NCBI GenBank assembly: GCA_949291575.1
Contig: CASEWH010000067.1
Span: forward strand, 1 to 57,268
Direction of reading: 5' to 3'
DNA: 57,268 nucleotides
Origin: an uncultured bacterium
GTDB lineage: Bacteria > Bacillota_I > Bacilli_A > RF39 > UBA660
Part shown: positions 32,416 to 47,658 of the stretch, piece after piece
How positions within the stretch are numbered: position 1 is the stretch's first letter
Layout: the number at the start of each line of letters is the position of its first letter
Made by a program: the position numbers and the translations under genes
The notes under the pieces: model-generated
Told to the model about the DNA's origin: nothing
The model's input: only the letters and a program-made list of their open reading frames with translations
The model's database searches: none

Positions 32416-32715
32416 TTATATTCTCTTCTCTTTTATTACTATATTCCCATCTTCATCAAAATAATAATTATCTTCTTGTTTAAAATGTTCTTTATTATGA
32501 CAATCAATACATAAAGCTTCTAAGTTGTCCCAGTTTAAGGTAATATCTGGGTTATCTACGTTATCTATAGTTACATATTCTTTATGATGACAAATAGTTG
32601 CCGAGTTGTTACATCTTTCACATATATAATATTTACTACTCATGTATGCTTTGCTTGTATCTTTCCAAGCCTTACTATGATAAAGCTTATCAACTTTAGG
32701 ATTACTTCTTTGCAT
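32416..32715 (-). CDS. HNH endonuclease (packaging-associated)
   Basis: CERCN...CHHKEY...ALCIDCHNKEH. Start moved to MQRSNPK. Confidence 0.85.
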   Translation of the reverse strand: MQRSNPKVDKLYHSKAWKDTSKAYMSSKYYICERCNNSATICHHKEYVTIDNVDNPDITLNWDNLEALCIDCHNKEHFKQEDNYYFDEDGNIVIKEKRI

Positions 32716-32911
32716 TATTTTTAACTTTATCAGTTTTAATAGTTGCTTTCTCAACATTATTGTCTAACATAGCTGTCTCTACTACTTCTTTTACATAATT
32801 ATTTTCAAGAAGTACTTTAGCTCTTTTTTGAGATACATTAAATACTTCATTTATTTCTCTAATCTTATTAGATTCTAAATCTTTAAACTTTTCAATAACA
32901 ATTACTTTCAT
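32702..32911 (-). CDS. Hypothetical protein, first late ORF
   Basis: Start moved to MKVIVIEKF after AATGGAGGA. The tracked upstream extension lies in the ribozyme. Confidence 0.6.
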   Translation of the reverse strand: MKVIVIEKFKDLESNKIREINEVFNVSQKRAKVLLENNYVKEVVETAMLDNNVEKATIKTDKVKNNAKK

Positions 32912-32950
32912 ATATAATCCTCCATTTAATAGTAGTCTTAAAGTATGGGA

Positions 32951-33100
32951 CATCTAGGTCTTCAGTTATTCCCTCAGTTGGAAGACTCCACGCTACACGC
33001 TAGTTGACATTCATAATACTAAATAAGTTAATTACTCTCATCTACTAGTATGTTTCGATTGTAGTCAGCAATCTCATCAGGCGTGTACTGAGGCTAGATG
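32951..33100 (-). ncRNA. Hammerhead ribozyme, type I topology
   Basis: CUGAUGA, stem II GAUUG/CAAUC, GAA, a 14-position stem III, cleavage triplet GUA (A17 at 32994), and a three-block stem I of 5+6+7 bp. All folded by hand from the sequence. Confidence 0.8.
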
Positions 33101-33152
33101 TTTGGATGTCAATGCCCCTGCCAAACCCACGCTTTAAAACTACTATTGTAAT

Positions 33153-33183
33153 ATAAACAAAAAGAATATATTTCTATATTCTT
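33153..33183 (-). terminator. Rho-independent terminator downstream of the late-activator gene
   Basis: AAGAAUAUA-GAAA-UAUAUUCUU stem-loop followed by UUUGUUU on the minus strand. Confidence 0.6.
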
Positions 33184-33241
33184 ATGTGTGCAATAAATTA
33201 GTTTTTTCGCTAATTATCCAACTGCACTATAACACATTTTA

Positions 33242-33261
33242 CTGGACATTGTCTGGACATT
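33242..33261 (-). promoter_or_regulatory. Tandem 9-mers (AATGTCCAG x2, 11-bp phase); candidate late-activator binding site
   Basis: CTGGACATT at 33242-33250 and 33253-33261, directly after the stop of the sigma-like gene. Confidence 0.35.
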
Positions 33262-33705
33262 TTAATTATTTTCTTTAGTTTCTTCTTCAACTGATTTATT
33301 TTCATTAATATCTTTTATTATTCTTTGTATTGTTTTTTCGGAACAGTCAAATTTAGCAGCAATATCAGCATGAGATAGACCATATAAATATTTTGCCTTA
33401 AAAACTTTCTTTTCCATCTCGTCCATTTCCTCTATACTTCTGTCTACTTCATTAAAATAATCATTGATCTTATCTAATTCTTTTTTTATTAAAGTTCTTT
33501 CTTTATCTAATTCCTCTATTTCTGCAAAAGTTGCTGTAAACCTATCAGGATGTTTTTCATTTTGGACTTTAACTTCATCAAAGGTAAATCCATGTAATCC
33601 TAATTTTTCATCTATTTTTAATTGTATTCTTTCGTTTAGAATCTTATAAGTCTTTTCATATAATGTACGATCATTTTTTAGTTTTCTTATAACACTATAT
33701 TTCAT
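33262..33705 (-). CDS. Sigma-70 region-4-like late transcriptional activator (RinA/ArpU-type role)
   Basis: 147 aa. C-terminal EKKVFKAKYLYGLSHADIAAKFDCSEKTIQRIIKD HTH. Located just upstream of the packaging genes. Confidence 0.7.
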   Translation of the reverse strand: MKYSVIRKLKNDRTLYEKTYKILNERIQLKIDEKLGLHGFTFDEVKVQNEKHPDRFTATFAEIEELDKERTLIKKELDKINDYFNEVDRSIEEMDEMEKKVFKAKYLYGLSHADIAAKFDCSEKTIQRIIKDINENKSVEEETKENN

Positions 33706-34844
33706 TTTCCCTCCTTAATCTTTTCTACTTTTACATATCCTGTATCTAGTAACTCTCTAGCCCTTTCGTTGTCATATAAATAATAAATATTATTTTTTCT
33801 TATTATAGCATTTCCAATATCATTATGCTCGAATATATCATCAATTATGAGTTCTGGTCTTTTATCAATGTAATCTTTTAAGGCCCTAATTTTATATTTT
33901 ATTTTAGGGACAGATACTCTCTTATTGAATAATTTATCCCAGTCTTTTATAGTACCTTTTTCTTTATACACAAAGTTTTTTGGAATATTGTTTACTATTT
34001 TATTTATATCTAAATTAGATAAATCCATATCTAATAAATAGCCATTAACACCATCTTCAATCGATTCATAACTACTTGGATAATTTGTGGAAATAACTGG
34101 CGTCCCATATTGTAAGCACTCATTAACAAAATAACAATAACCTTCTGTATCTGATAATTGCACCCCATAATCTGCTTCTGCTATATAATCAAATATATCG
34201 TGTGAAGGTTTTAAATAAACGATTTCTTCCATATCAAAAGGTTTCTGTTGATATAATTTTAAATCGGTAAAAATAATCCATCTAAATTTTATATTATTTG
34301 CTTTTAAAACTTGAGCTAATTTTAGCATTCTACTGTACCCTTTTTCCTTTGAAACTCTAGTTGCTGATATTAATTTTAAAATATGATGAGTATCTTGTTT
34401 ATCATCTAATATATTATAAATGGTTGTTACTTTTTCATTTGGATATAGATTTTTAAAAACAGATGTTATATGTTTACCGACTGCAACATGTTCTGTTGTT
34501 TTATTCCATTTTTCATAGACAAAACCTGTATCTTTAGCTTTTATATAATCAGCATGAATCATCTGTATATATCTTCCAGTTTTAGCAATAACAGTTTCAG
34601 GATATCCTCCCCAAGCACTTGCCAAAAGACAAATGTCACATATATATTTCTTATTTTCTTTATATTTCTCTACTGAAATATTCAATTTCTTTAGTCTGTT
34701 TATAGTATCTAAATGTCCTTCTTTATATAAAAATAAAATATTGTATTTATCTCTCATTTTCTTACAAAAGTTATAATCAAATGTATCAATGCCTCCAATC
34801 TGTAATGGATTAGTATGATATAGAATTATATTCTTTTTTCTCAT
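33702..34844 (-). CDS. GT-B (group 1) glycosyltransferase with extra C-terminal domain
   Basis: LSDTEGYCYFVNECLQYGTPVISTNYPSSYESIEDGVNGYLL (E-x7-E region). Start moved to MRKKNIILY after GGAGG. Confidence 0.7.
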   Translation of the reverse strand: MRKKNIILYHTNPLQIGGIDTFDYNFCKKMRDKYNILFLYKEGHLDTINRLKKLNISVEKYKENKKYICDICLLASAWGGYPETVIAKTGRYIQMIHADYIKAKDTGFVYEKWNKTTEHVAVGKHITSVFKNLYPNEKVTTIYNILDDKQDTHHILKLISATRVSKEKGYSRMLKLAQVLKANNIKFRWIIFTDLKLYQQKPFDMEEIVYLKPSHDIFDYIAEADYGVQLSDTEGYCYFVNECLQYGTPVISTNYPSSYESIEDGVNGYLLDMDLSNLDINKIVNNIPKNFVYKEKGTIKDWDKLFNKRVSVPKIKYKIRALKDYIDKRPELIIDDIFEHNDIGNAIIRKNNIYYLYDNERARELLDTGYVKVEKIKEGK

Positions 34845-34920
34845 GGTACCTCCAACAAATGTATCTTTCATCAATATTTTTCTTTTCTTTTAACTAATAA
34901 TTATATTTCTTTACACATAT

Positions 34921-47581: not shown

Positions 47582-47602
47582 CTGGCGTCCCCAGAGGGAA
47601 TC
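47582..47602. repeat. att core copy within the intact tRNA 3' end
   Basis: Identical to 9155-9175. Confidence 0.9.
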
Positions 47603-47658
47603 GAACCTTCATCTAAGCCTTAGGAGGGCCTTGTTCTATCCGTTGAACTATGGGGACA
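47584..47658 (-). tRNA. tRNA-Arg(CCU): tRNA-Arg (anticodon CCU)
   Basis: 75 nt. Acceptor GTCCCCA/TGGGGAC, D-stem GTTC/GAAC, anticodon loop CUCCUAA, T-loop TTCGATT, encoded CCA. One A-C mismatch in the T-stem. Confidence 0.85.

What the first reader, a model, noticed from the sequence alone, without database searches (positions are those of the whole stretch)
32951..33100. Complete type I hammerhead ribozyme in the leader of the late (packaging/structural) operon
The minus-strand RNA contains every invariant hammerhead element in canonical order. CUGAUGA is at 33080-33074. Stem II is GAUUG/CAAUC with a 7-nt loop (33073-33057). GAA is at 33056-33054. Stem III has 14 positions (33053-33040 with 33008-32995: 10 Watson-Crick, 2 G-U, 2 mismatches) and opens with the A15.1-U16.1 and C15.2-G16.2 pairs. 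The cleavage triplet is GUA (32996-32994). Stem I is GCGUG/CACGC (32993-32989 with 33085-33081) and is extended by CUGAGG/CCUCAG and CUAGAUG/CAUCUAG. Its 3'-strand internal loops could contact loop II. A chance occurrence of this arrangement in about 57 kb is very unlikely. The ribozyme lies downstream of the late-activator gene and a terminator, and about 40 nt upstream of the first late ORF. Cleavage would therefore detach read-through transcripts and give the late mRNA a defined 5'-OH end. Hammerheads are known in prophages, but their function there is unresolved.
Basis: partly seen in the sequence, partly recalled or inferred. Interest (0 to 1): 0.65.

Follow-up and report, generated by a model that had tools for sequence, protein, structure and literature searches.

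The report
Hammerhead ribozyme nested in unclassified phage RNA
The hammerhead self-cleaving motif is real, but it sits inside a loop of a conserved ~100-nt double-pseudoknot phage RNA that matches no Rfam 15 family, often lies in phage tRNA gene arrays, and carries a hammerhead at this same loop in about 70% of the copies I sampled.

Summary
It is the only such match in the window, and 5 of 1000 shuffles gave one as good. Rfam 15 gives no hammerhead hit for it, even at E<=10. Comparative data support it instead: in 26 parsed hammerheads (20 distinct after trimming), stems I, II and III covary and the core is kept.

It belongs to a ~100-nt RNA with hairpins P0 and Pb, helix Pa and two pseudoknots (PK, S2). 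I recovered 96 distinct copies from phage contigs, MAGs and metagenomes, plus cultured-phage copies. All helices except Pa covary strongly.

The hammerhead lies in loop L1. It uses the scaffold's conserved GCGUG as its stem I strand and cuts just 5' of it (32994|32993). Of 96 copies, 69 have a hammerhead there, 21 have no insert and 6 have other inserts. Two enterobacterial phages carry a circularly permuted gene.

Two of the window's closest relatives lack the ~205-nt element and two have it. The late-leader position is therefore one insertion site among several, not the motif's purpose. The scaffold's function is unknown.

The parts
33133..33147 (-). Outer closing helix, 5' strand (AAUAGUAGUUUUAAA). 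It pairs with 32928-32942.
   Evidence: Recovered in the minimum-free-energy fold of 33150-32925 (z = -3.9). The sibling L108 has AAUAAUAGU/ACUAUUAUU where the window has AAUAGUAGU/ACUACUAUU. L082 has an unrelated but complementary pair of arms. This helix is not universal: it is absent in tRNA-array copies.
33126..33132 (-). box1, GCGUGGG: the conserved 5' box of the scaffold RNA.
   Evidence: CGUGGG occurs in 94 of 96 distinct members. In L109 and L146 it starts right after the upstream tRNA's discriminator base. In L147 its first base coincides with the last annotated tRNA base.
33101..33125 (-). Hairpin P0 (UUUGG / CCAAA). Its loop is CAGGGGCAUUGACAU, and loop bases 33118-33112 (GGGGCAU) form the 5' strand of pseudoknot PK.
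   Evidence: P0: 5 of 6 pairs show changes on both sides. In 96 members, 474 Watson-Crick, 3 G-U and 3 mismatched cells out of 480, with 31 distinct 5' strands.
33094..33100 (-). CAUCUAG: a conserved junction. CUAG (33097-33094) is the 5' strand of helix Pa.
   Evidence: CAUCU is nearly invariant. Pa is 94.6% paired but shows only G-U/A-U alternation and no double changes.
33088..33093 (-). Hairpin Pb, 5' strand (CCUCAG).
   Evidence: 6 of 6 pairs show double changes. In 96 members, 571 Watson-Crick, 4 G-U and 1 mismatch out of 576, with 42 distinct 5' strands.
32994..33085 (-). Hammerhead inserted in loop L1 of Pb. Stem I 5' strand CACGC 33085-33081; core CUGAUGA 33080-33074; stem II hairpin 33073-33057; GAA 33056-33054; long stem III domain 33053-32995; H17 = A 32994. 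The predicted cut is between 32994 and 32993.
   Evidence: Direct reading. Only descriptor hit in the window. 5 of 1000 shuffles as good. Covariation in stems I, II and III, and one C3-G8 to U3-A8 change in A3 (three such cores among 69 hammerheads). No Rfam hit for this copy.
32987..32993 (-). box2, GCGUGGA: a conserved scaffold box. Its first five bases are the 3' strand of hammerhead stem I, and its 5' end is the predicted cleavage product end.
   Evidence: CG(U/C)GGA occurs in 96 of 96 members, with or without a hammerhead. Position 1.1/2.1 covaries as C-G, G-C and U-A.
32981..32986 (-). Pseudoknot S2, 5' strand (GUCUUC), inside the Pb loop.
   Evidence: Pairs with 32963-32958. In 96 members, 575 Watson-Crick and 1 G-U out of 576 cells, with 17 distinct S2 sequences. 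First seen in cultured phages.
32972..32980 (-). L2 (CAA, 32980-32978) and the Pb 3' strand (CUGAGG, 32977-32972).
32964..32971 (-). L3, GAAUAACU: the most conserved single-stranded segment of the scaffold.
   Evidence: Kept in members found by BLAST rather than by pattern. In the pattern-derived members it was fixed by the search pattern.
32958..32963 (-). Pseudoknot S2, 3' strand (GAAGAC).
32947..32957 (-). Pa 3' strand (CUAG, 32957-32954) and PK 3' strand (AUGUCCC, 32953-32947).
   Evidence: PK: 7 of 7 pairs show double changes. In 96 members, 7 of 7 positions pair in 85 and 6 of 7 in 11, with 61 distinct 3' strands.
32928..32946 (-). Tail and outer closing helix, 3' strand (AUAC UUUAAG ACUACUAUU).
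   Evidence: The first two tail bases pair with U4 and G3 of box1 in most members.
33226..33260 (-). Context: the direct repeat ATGTCCAG-N3-ATGTCCAG and an extended -10 (TGTTATAGT). This is the candidate late promoter that would transcribe the element.
   Evidence: Promoter-like site CAGACA-18-TATAGT with TG. Conserved in siblings that lack the element.
33158..33183 (-). Context: an AT-rich hairpin plus T-run in the leader, upstream of the element.
   Evidence: Direct reading. Conserved in L001, L003, L104 and L108. The scanner does not call it a terminator because it has too few G-C pairs.
32702..32911 (-). Context: the first downstream ORF (phrog_933-like; RBS GGAGGA, ATG 32911). It is followed by HNH, TerS, TerL and portal genes.

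Best explanation
The motif is a genuine type I hammerhead that forms part of a composite RNA gene.

The host RNA (the 'scaffold') is about 100 nt. It consists of box1 (NCGUGGG); hairpin P0; the junction CAUCU(A/G)G, which gives helix Pa; hairpin Pb; the junction GAAUAACU; and a 3' tail. Two pseudoknots lock it. PK pairs the P0 loop with the 3' tail. S2 pairs the Pb loop with the strand just 3' of Pb.

The hammerhead occupies loop L1 of the Pb/S2 pseudoknot. It borrows the scaffold's conserved box2 (GCGUG...) as the 3' strand of its stem I.

Inferred mechanism:
1. During transcription from the late promoter, the hammerhead folds as soon as box2 emerges.
2. It cuts between A32994 and G32993.
3. 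This converts the continuous precursor into a nicked, two-piece scaffold held together by Pb, Pa, PK and S2.
4. It frees box2, now with a 5'-OH, from the 5-bp stem I so that box2 can take the conformation it has in hammerhead-less copies.

L1 is a permissive site: it tolerates no insert, hairpin inserts, hammerheads, or being the place where a permuted gene begins and ends. In this window the 3' piece stays attached to the late (packaging) mRNA, so the mRNA is also separated from its promoter-proximal leader. I regard that as a side effect of where this portable element sits.

Shown: the anatomy, the family, the covariation, the constant cut position, and the presence/absence polymorphism. Inferred: actual cleavage, the two-piece assembly, and its purpose. 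Unknown: what the scaffold RNA does.
For: Hammerhead:
- Canonical core and stems.
- Chance expectation about 0.005 per window.
- 95% of stem cells are paired against 76% in shuffles. Double changes occur in stems I, II and III, and there is one U3-A8 core covariation.
- Compact hammerheads at the same position in relatives score just under Rfam's cut-off (L148: 28.7 bits against 34, E = 0.0017).

Scaffold:
- Alignment A2 (37 distinct sequences): 97.1% of cells paired against 75.9% in shuffles, and 21 of 29 pairs with double changes, both pseudoknots included.
- In 96 distinct members, S2 is 575/576 Watson-Crick with 17 sequences, Pb 571/576 with 42, P0 474/480 with 31, and PK is fully paired in 85 of 96 with 61 sequences.
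- G-U cells outnumber A-C cells 35 to 10, so the minus strand is the RNA strand.
- Every nearest tRNA that ARAGORN reports is co-oriented with the element.

L1 as a hot spot:
- 69 hammerhead, 21 no insert, 6 other insert. The hammerhead always ends exactly at box2.

Permuted genes (Enterobacter phage SDFMU_EhYP, Pectobacterium phage Pappous):
- The RNA starts with a hammerhead that cuts at box2.
- It ends in L1.
- In Pappous it ends 9 nt before the annotated 5' end of tRNA-Met.

Portability:
- Absent from siblings L001 and L003, present in L104 and L108.
- A copy that differs at only a few positions sits in an unrelated phage, L082.
- None in about 80 HNH-related loci.
Against: - No experiment shows cleavage.
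- Rfam's hammerhead models do not score this copy at all. They also score 16 relatives with compact hammerheads below threshold.
- 31 of 69 hammerheads in the family have a non-Watson-Crick 10.1/11.1 pair, a position where a mispair led Perreault et al. 2011 to reject candidates. Some may therefore be slow or inactive. The window's copy has G-C there.
- 21 members work without any nick in L1, so a break is not required for scaffold function.
- The purpose of the nick is inferred only from constancy of position and from the permuted genes.
- Members were collected with sequence patterns that fix parts of box2, S2 or L3. Conservation of those blocks is therefore inflated, apart from the 8 cultured-phage records found by BLAST.
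- Alignments A2 and A3 were trimmed by me: L1 inserts and hammerhead loops were excised, and the GAA position was chosen to favour stem II pairing.
- The function of the scaffold is unknown.
Confidence: 0.55

Rival explanations
1. The hammerhead exists to process the late-operon leader: cleavage detaches read-through or leader RNA and gives the packaging mRNA a defined 5'-OH end, which changes its stability or translation.
For: - Position between the late-activator gene, a promoter-like site and leader hairpin, and the first late ORF.
- Several other Bacillota-phage copies also lie downstream of a similar-looking activator-like protein (L083, L086; resemblance by eye only, no Pfam match for L083) or 16-30 nt upstream of a small ORF.
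- Cleavage would necessarily cut the mRNA here.
Against: - Siblings L001 and L003 have the same promoter, leader and ORFs without the element.
- About 80 related HNH/terminase junctions lack it.
- The same RNA sits in tRNA arrays, between TerL and portal, and as an apparently stand-alone unit.
- The cut site is fixed relative to the scaffold, not relative to any ORF.
- This model does not explain the roughly 100 nt of conserved pseudoknotted RNA around the hammerhead.
Confidence: 0.17
2. A selfish or neutral passenger. Hammerheads spread into the permissive L1 loop and persist because self-cleavage removes the constraint they would otherwise put on box2. The nick itself has no use for the phage.
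For: - L1 also tolerates unrelated inserts and no insert at all.
- The hammerheads at this site differ widely in form: long stem III types, compact types, and core or 10.1/11.1 variants.
- L104 has a broken stem II.
Against: - 72% of sampled members keep a hammerhead with an intact core and compensatory changes. That indicates purifying selection.
- Permuted genes use a hammerhead to make the 5' end at box2, which is a functional role.
Confidence: 0.15
3. An allosteric ribozyme. The scaffold is a sensor (for a ligand, protein or tRNA) that switches hammerhead cleavage on or off, for example by offering box1 instead of box2 to the CACGC strand. This would control the late operon.
For: - The first base of box1 and the first base of box2 are identical in 94 of 96 members. 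The hammerhead's stem I 5' strand can therefore pair with either box.
- The conserved unpaired segments resemble a binding pocket (inference only).
Against: - The box identity also holds in all 21 hammerhead-less members.
- No ligand or partner is known.
- No terminator or RBS alternative pairing is seen in the window (read by eye).
- Many copies are not upstream of any gene.
Confidence: 0.08
4. A chance or decayed hammerhead-like motif, or a DNA-level element (inverted-repeat insertion or recombination site) with no RNA function.
For: - No Rfam hit.
- The element is an indel flanked by inverted repeats and TTAAA-like ends.
Against: - Covariation of hammerhead and scaffold helices across phages of at least four bacterial phyla.
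- G-U outnumbers A-C 35 to 10.
- Constant orientation with the nearest tRNA genes.
- The pseudoknots make sense only for RNA.
Confidence: 0.04

Closest known systems
Type I hammerhead ribozymes of phages and prophages (Rfam RF00163; Perreault et al. 2011, PMC3088659)
   Same: - Same catalytic core, three-stem junction and cut after H17.
- Intergenic position in long phage transcripts.
- U3-A8 core covariation, as reported there.
   Different: - Stem I is not a free helix with a loop or bulge. Its 3' strand is a conserved box of another structured RNA, and it abuts two pseudoknot helices.
- Stem III here is a 59-nt domain.
- Rfam models miss this copy and score relatives below threshold.
- Many relatives have A.A or U.U at 10.1/11.1, a feature that the 2011 search criteria rejected.
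Theta (HDV-like) ribozymes next to phage tRNA genes (Kienbeck et al. 2024, PMC10879173)
   Same: - A small structured or self-cleaving RNA that directly abuts phage tRNA genes and is co-oriented with them.
- A role in tRNA-linked processing has been postulated for theta ribozymes. Several scaffold copies start right at a tRNA 3' end.
   Different: - Different fold: there is no P1/P1.1/P2/P3/P4 nested double pseudoknot. The P0 loop is too short to hold P3/L3 (my reading).
- No Rfam HDV-family hit.
- The catalytic part here is a hammerhead that cuts inside the RNA, not at its 5' end.
GOLLD and ROOL: large ornate ncRNAs of phages found near tRNA genes (Rfam RF02032; PMC12286853)
   Same: - Phage-borne, function unknown, found in tRNA neighbourhoods.
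- GOLLD lies next to the scaffold RNA in L130 and in the same array region in L097.
   Different: - About 100 nt against 400-800 nt.
- No sequence or model match.
- GOLLD and ROOL are not reported to host a hammerhead (my knowledge).
Natural circular permutation of small RNAs (hammerhead types I-III, twister P1/P3/P5). From my own knowledge; the related paper PMC10085705 was listed but not read.
   Same: The same scaffold fold is encoded in two gene orders, with the ends either at the outer helix or in loop L1.
   Different: Here the permutation is of the host RNA. The hammerhead serves as the device that makes the new 5' end.

Membership tests
Hammerhead ribozyme | Core C3 U4 G5 A6 N7 G8 A9 ... 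G12 A13 A14, in that order | tested here: met
   CUGAUGA 33080-33074 and GAA 33056-33054. Across 69 family hammerheads the cores are CUGAUGA 39, CUGACGA 17, CUGAAGA 10, UUGAUAA 2 and UUGAAAA 1.
Hammerhead ribozyme | A15.1-U16.1 pair and a cleavage-site nucleotide H17 that is not G | tested here: met
   A 33053 pairs with U 32995, and H17 is A 32994. Family H17: A 36, C 31, U 2. A15.1-U16.1 is invariant in the A3 alignment.
Hammerhead ribozyme | Three helices I, II and III around the core, kept by compensatory changes | tested here: met
   95% of cells paired against 76% in shuffles. Double changes in 2 of 5 (stem I), 3 of 4 (stem II) and 2 of 4 (stem III) pairs. Caveat: the alignment was trimmed by my own parser.
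Hammerhead ribozyme | Watson-Crick pairs next to the core (10.1-11.1, 1.1-2.1) | tested here: met
   The window has G 33073 - C 33057 and G 32993 - C 33081. In the family, 31 of 69 have a non-canonical 10.1/11.1 pair.
Hammerhead ribozyme | Score at or above the gathering cut-off of an Rfam hammerhead covariance model | tested here: not met
   No hit for the window at gathering score or at E<=10. Relatives: 28.7, 19.4 and 20.9 bits against cut-offs of 34, 34 and 48.5. None of 16 further relatives reaches threshold. Probable causes (my inference) are the long stem III insert and an open, short stem I. This is a detection criterion, not a defining property of the ribozyme.
Hammerhead ribozyme | Mg2+-dependent self-cleavage giving 2',3'-cyclic phosphate and 5'-OH ends | not testable with these tools
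   Needs in vitro transcription of 33150-32925 (minus strand). Expected fragments are 157 nt and 69 nt.
Hammerhead ribozyme, type I topology | Stems II and III are capped by loops and stem I is the open helix | tested here: met
   Direct reading. The same holds in all parsed relatives.
Hammerhead ribozyme | A tertiary contact between stem I and stem II elements that supports fast cleavage | tested here: inconclusive
   Loop II CUGACUA is conserved within the long-stem-III subgroup. I found no covarying partner. Compact relatives have unrelated loops.
HDV-like / theta ribozymes | Nested double pseudoknot (P1, P1.1, P2, P3, P4) with the cut at the 5' end, or an Rfam HDV-family match | tested here: not met
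   No Rfam hit on hammerhead-less copies, even at E<=10, E<=5 or E<=1. The helix order P0 / PK / Pa / Pb / S2 does not map onto the HDV fold (my reading).
Hatchet ribozyme | Four stems P1-P4 with conserved L2 residues and the cut at the 5' end of P1 | tested here: not met
   Architecture as described in PMC6561176 has no equivalent of PK or S2. No Rfam hit.
T4 stable RNAs: species 1 (rnaC) and species 2 (rnaD) of the tRNA cluster | Sequence similarity to T4 rnaC or rnaD | tested here: not met
   Reading the T4 region shows none of the scaffold boxes. The scaffold covariance model finds nothing in L144.
Any Rfam 15 family (for the scaffold RNA) | A covariance-model match | tested here: not met
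   Searches (gathering score; E-value mode) cover copies with and without a hammerhead. Only tRNA and GOLLD neighbours are hit.

The most novel reading that the evidence does not exclude
The scaffold is a previously undescribed and widespread class of phage non-coding RNA. It is a compact double-pseudoknot RNA carried in or near tRNA arrays by phages of Bacillota, Actinomycetota, Cyanobacteriota and Pseudomonadota. It may function as a nicked or permuted two-piece molecule. Hammerheads of many forms, including 10.1/11.1 variants that standard searches discard, are built into one loop and make a 5'-OH end at a conserved box. The nearly invariant unpaired segments (CGUGGG, CAUCU, CGYGGA, GAAUAACU) and the unusual identity covariation between the first bases of box1 and box2 would then mark an active site or a binding site. 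Candidate roles are a new ribozyme, a tRNA-processing or tRNA-repair cofactor, or an anti-defence decoy.
Probability: 0.45. Interest if true: 0.88.

Novelty: new variant of a known kind. Interest (0 to 1): 0.78.

Why it matters
Hammerheads have been known in prophages since 2011, but what they do there is unresolved (PMC3088659). This family gives one concrete context. The ribozyme is a built-in part of another conserved RNA and always cuts at the same conserved nucleotide of that RNA. Its role can therefore be tested as RNA maturation rather than generic mRNA processing.

The family also shows that curated hammerhead models miss a sizeable natural group: Rfam gave no above-threshold hit for the window or for any relative tested.

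It adds an apparently unclassified structured RNA to the short list of phage ncRNAs that travel with tRNA genes (GOLLD, ROOL, theta ribozymes).

Members occur in cultured phages, so genetics is feasible: Mycobacterium phage Gaia, Arthrobacter phage Constance, Pectobacterium phage Pappous, Enterobacter phage SDFMU_EhYP and Microcystis phage Mwe-JY26.

Tried and rejected
- Rfam scans of the window and of 40 related loci, in gathering and E-value modes. No family fits the scaffold. The hammerhead models are sub-threshold or silent.
- blastn of the window element against cultured phages: nothing. A hammerhead-less copy as query did find divergent members.
- T4 rnaC/rnaD as possible homologues: rejected.
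- HDV-like/theta, hatchet, pistol, twister and hairpin ribozymes, and riboswitch classes, as identities for the scaffold. Rejected on Rfam silence and on topology. Only the hatchet architecture was checked against a paper; the others rest on my recall.
- Reading the scaffold itself as a permuted hammerhead because it contains CUGAAGA and GUC. Rejected: those bases pair as S2 and vary (CUGAGCAC, CUGCGGAC and others).
- A tRNA-Phe-like anticodon loop (CUGAAGA): rejected for the same reason.
- A protein partner. Flanking genes are heterogeneous (glycosyltransferases, ThiF, DUF2828/DUF7788, SprT-like, terminase, portal), and none recurs.
- A third base that would explain the box1/box2 identity. 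A mutual-information scan found none. The closing helix reaches only U4 and G3 of box1.
- Literature searches for the conserved sequences and for phage, tRNA and hammerhead combinations. No description of this RNA was found in the held library, which lacks most subscription journals.
- Whether hammerhead-less copies are preferentially next to tRNAs. By ARAGORN, 5 of 9 against 4 of 25 in the first set. This is only a tendency and is not corrected for relatedness.
Full report
**1. The observation**

- CUGAUGA, 33080-33074.
- Stem II GAUUG/CAAUC with a 7-nt loop, 33073-33057.
- GAA, 33056-33054.
- A15.1-U16.1 and C15.2-G16.2.
- GUA, 32996-32994.
- Stem I CACGC (33085-33081) with GCGUG (32993-32989).

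A descriptor scan I wrote finds this as the only hit on either strand of the 57-kb window. Among 1000 dinucleotide-preserving shuffles, 5 contained a hit with stems at least as long, and 55 contained a hit under looser limits. The core alone is therefore unlikely by chance, but not overwhelmingly so for a genome-wide scan.

Rfam 15 does not support it. There is no hammerhead hit at gathering score and none at E<=10 on a 401-nt stretch.

**2. Context**

- The upstream gene (33262-33705) encodes a sigma-70 region 4 protein.
- Downstream lie a small phrog_933 ORF (true start ATG 32911), then HNH, TerS, TerL and portal genes.
- Between them, on the minus strand, are a direct repeat ATGTCCAG-N3-ATGTCCAG, an extended -10 and an AT-rich hairpin with a T-run.

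**3. The element is an indel**

- Two of the closest relatives keep the promoter, the leader hairpin and the ORFs but lack about 205 nt. These are L001 (90% identical activator protein) and L003. The gap runs from just after GTTTTAAA to just before the RBS.
- Two other siblings, L104 and L108 (MAGs of Bacilli), have the element at the same site.
- A copy that differs at only a few positions lies in an unrelated phage contig, L082. There too it is upstream of a small ORF, TerS and TerL.
- A covariance model of the element finds nothing in about 80 loci that carry a related HNH gene at this junction. It finds no second copy in the window.

**4. A family, and what the 'extended stem I' really is**

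Pattern scans of viral, genome and metagenome collections, plus BLAST against cultured phages, recovered many copies. After parsing there are 96 distinct full-length members.

All members share a scaffold of about 100 nt, in this order:
- box1, NCGUGGG;
- hairpin P0;
- CAUCU(A/G)G;
- hairpin Pb;
- GAAUAACU;
- a 3' tail.

Seven bases in the P0 loop pair with the tail (pseudoknot PK). Six bases in the Pb loop pair with the six bases that follow GAAUAACU (pseudoknot S2).

On a 37-sequence alignment, 97.1% of cells are paired against 75.9% in shuffles. Double changes occur in P0 (5 of 6 pairs), PK (7 of 7), Pb (6 of 6) and S2 (3 of 6). Helix Pa shows only G-U/A-U alternation.

In the 96 members:

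| Helix | Pairing | Distinct sequences |
|---|---|---|
| S2 | 575 of 576 cells Watson-Crick | 17 |
| Pb | 571 of 576 cells Watson-Crick | 42 |
| P0 | 474 of 480 cells Watson-Crick | 31 |
| PK | all 7 positions paired in 85 of 96 members | 61 |

G-U cells outnumber A-C cells 35 to 10, which identifies the transcribed strand.

- CCUCAG/CUGAGG is Pb.
- CAUCUAG/CUAGAUG is Pa plus the start of PK.
- The two 'internal loops' are the S2 strands and the conserved junctions.

**5. Where the hammerhead sits**

The hammerhead lies in loop L1, between the Pb 5' strand and box2 (NCG(U/C)GGA). The first five bases of box2 are the 3' strand of stem I, so the cut falls exactly 5' of box2 in every case.

Of the 96 members, 69 have a hammerhead there, 21 have only a 2-5-nt linker and 6 have other short inserts that match no Rfam family.

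The hammerheads differ widely:
- The window's type has a 59-nt stem III domain, a conserved inner hairpin and a conserved loop II.
- Most others are compact.
- Cores are CUGAUGA, CUGACGA or CUGAAGA. Three have the U3-A8 covariation already known from natural hammerheads (PMC3088659).

On a trimmed alignment of 20 distinct hammerheads, 95% of stem cells pair against 76% in shuffles, and stems I, II and III all show double changes.

Compact relatives reach 28.7, 19.4 and 20.9 bits against Rfam cut-offs of 34, 34 and 48.5. Sixteen further relatives do not reach threshold. Thirty-one of 69 have A.A, U.U or C.A at 10.1/11.1, a feature that earlier searches used as a reason for rejection. The window's copy has the canonical G-C.

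I conclude that the hammerhead is genuine and that the Rfam miss is a sensitivity problem.

**6. Contexts of the family**

tRNA neighbourhoods:
- The scaffold is co-oriented with every nearest tRNA gene that ARAGORN reports.
- It often lies inside phage tRNA arrays. In L109 it fills exactly the 99-nt gap between two tRNA-Leu genes.
- In L109 and L146, box1 starts right after a tRNA's discriminator base. In Mycobacterium phage Gaia (L147) its first base coincides with the last annotated tRNA base.

Other settings:
- Between TerL and portal (L095).
- Behind what reads as a T-phi-like terminator in a T7-like phage (L148).
- As a unit that appears to have its own -10 box and terminator (L087, read by eye).
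- Downstream of proteins that resemble the window's activator (L083, L086; no family match).
- GOLLD RNA is a neighbour in L130 and L097.

No protein gene recurs next to it.

**7. Circular permutation**

In Enterobacter phage SDFMU_EhYP and Pectobacterium phage Pappous the gene is permuted. Their close hits, phages Taid and Setonix, gave an identical BLAST alignment but I did not read their sequence. The order is:
- a hammerhead;
- box2, S2a, Pb 3' strand, GAAUAACU, S2b, Pa 3' strand, PK 3' strand;
- a capped helix;
- box1, P0, CAUCU, Pb 5' strand.

P0, PK and Pb differ between the two phages by compensatory changes. Here the hammerhead makes the RNA's 5' end at box2. In Pappous the 3' end in L1 lies 9 nt before the annotated 5' end of tRNA-Met.

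A discontinuity in L1 is therefore compatible with the fold, and a 5' end at box2 is produced in both gene orders.

**8. Most likely mechanism**

The hammerhead is a processing module of a composite RNA.

Shown:
- the anatomy;
- the constant cut position;
- purifying selection on the core and stems;
- a permissive L1;
- portability of the element.

Inferred:
- the hammerhead cuts co-transcriptionally between 32994 and 32993;
- the two pieces stay together through Pb, Pa, PK and S2;
- after cleavage the 5-bp stem I can open, so that box2 adopts the conformation it has in hammerhead-less members.

In this window the 3' piece remains fused to the late mRNA, which would start with a 5'-OH inside a structured RNA. 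I regard this as a by-product of the insertion site, because siblings do without it.

What the scaffold does is unknown. Its breadth across phages of four bacterial phyla and its invariant unpaired segments point to either an intrinsic activity or a universal partner.

**9. Rivals**

- Late-leader processing as the selected function. This is possible for the Bacillota subgroup, but it does not explain the scaffold or the other contexts.
- A selfish passenger in a permissive loop. The diversity of inserts fits this, but conservation and the permuted genes argue against it.
- An allosteric ribozyme. The first bases of box1 and box2 are identical in 94 of 96 members, so the CACGC strand could pair with either box. 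But the identity also holds in all 21 hammerhead-less members.
- A chance motif or a DNA-level element. Covariation, strand asymmetry and the pseudoknots argue against it.

**10. Unexplained**

The box1/box2 identity carries 1.30 bits of mutual information, far above any other position, and I found no complementary third position. The non-hammerhead inserts in L1 are also unexplained.

**11. Limits**

- There is no experimental evidence.
- Members were gathered with sequence patterns, which inflates apparent conservation of the fixed blocks.
- I made the alignments by excising L1 inserts or hammerhead loops.
- The literature library lacks most subscription journals. 'Not described' therefore means not in Rfam 15 and not found in the held papers.

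**12. Verdict**

The real object is larger and more unusual than reported: a hammerhead nested in an apparently unclassified, widespread phage RNA.

Noticed in passing
window 33226-33260 (- strand): The direct repeat ATGTCCAG-N3-ATGTCCAG lies immediately upstream of an extended -10 (TGTTATAGT). It is conserved in siblings with and without the element. It is a candidate operator and late promoter for the adjacent sigma-70-region-4 protein.
   Followed up: partly
window 33158-33183 (- strand): An AT-rich hairpin (AAGAATATA-GAAA-TATATTCTT) plus a T-run lies in the late leader and is conserved in all four siblings. It may be a promoter-proximal terminator or attenuator. The weak Rfam STnc370 hit (27.9 bits, cut-off 54) covers this region and is probably spurious.
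   Followed up: partly
all 96 family members; window 33132 and 32993: The first base of box1 and the first base of box2 are identical in 94 of 96 distinct members (G/G 51, C/C 36, U/U 5, A/A 2). This also holds in hammerhead-less members. No complementary third position was found. It is identity covariation rather than pairing covariation.
   Followed up: partly
L130 416-872 and L097 632-1115: GOLLD RNA (Rfam RF02032, 195 and 154 bits) lies next to the scaffold RNA in L130, and in the same tRNA-array region in L097.
   Followed up: no
L148 ~1450-1660 (Enterobacter phage SDFMU_EhYP); L149 ~870-1050 (Pectobacterium phage Pappous): These carry circularly permuted genes for the scaffold RNA. The 5' end is made by a hammerhead. 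In Pappous the 3' end lies 9 nt before the annotated 5' end of tRNA-Met. In Pappous a 'hypothetical protein' CDS is annotated over the RNA.
   Followed up: yes
family hammerheads, e.g. L162, L184, L233 (A.A); L110, L112, L122 (U.U); L147/L203 (UUGAUAA): 31 of 69 hammerheads have a non-Watson-Crick 10.1/11.1 pair, and 3 have the U3-A8 core variant. None of the 16 compact relatives tested at gathering threshold reached an Rfam hammerhead cut-off, and three others scanned in E-value mode scored below cut-off.
   Followed up: partly
L113, L118, L139, L238, L240, L251 (loop L1): Six members have non-hammerhead inserts of 16-36 nt in L1. Some share GGCUAAGAAAUAGCAA or GAGAUACCACAU. The three that were scanned (L113, L118, L139) match no Rfam family.
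   Followed up: partly
window 32702-32953 (- strand): The mechanical 83-aa ORF is over-extended. The PHROG match starts at residue 15, and an RBS (GGAGGA) precedes ATG 32911. The upstream 14 codons overlap the 3' end of the RNA element.
   Followed up: yes
window 33702-34874 and L087 downstream ORF: Glycosyltransferase genes (GT1 family in the window, GT2 family in L087) lie close to the element in two unrelated phages. This is probably coincidental.
   Followed up: no
window 47586-47657 (- strand): A single tRNA gene (Rfam 62 bits; ARAGORN calls it tRNA-Arg) lies about 14 kb from the element on the same strand.
   Followed up: no
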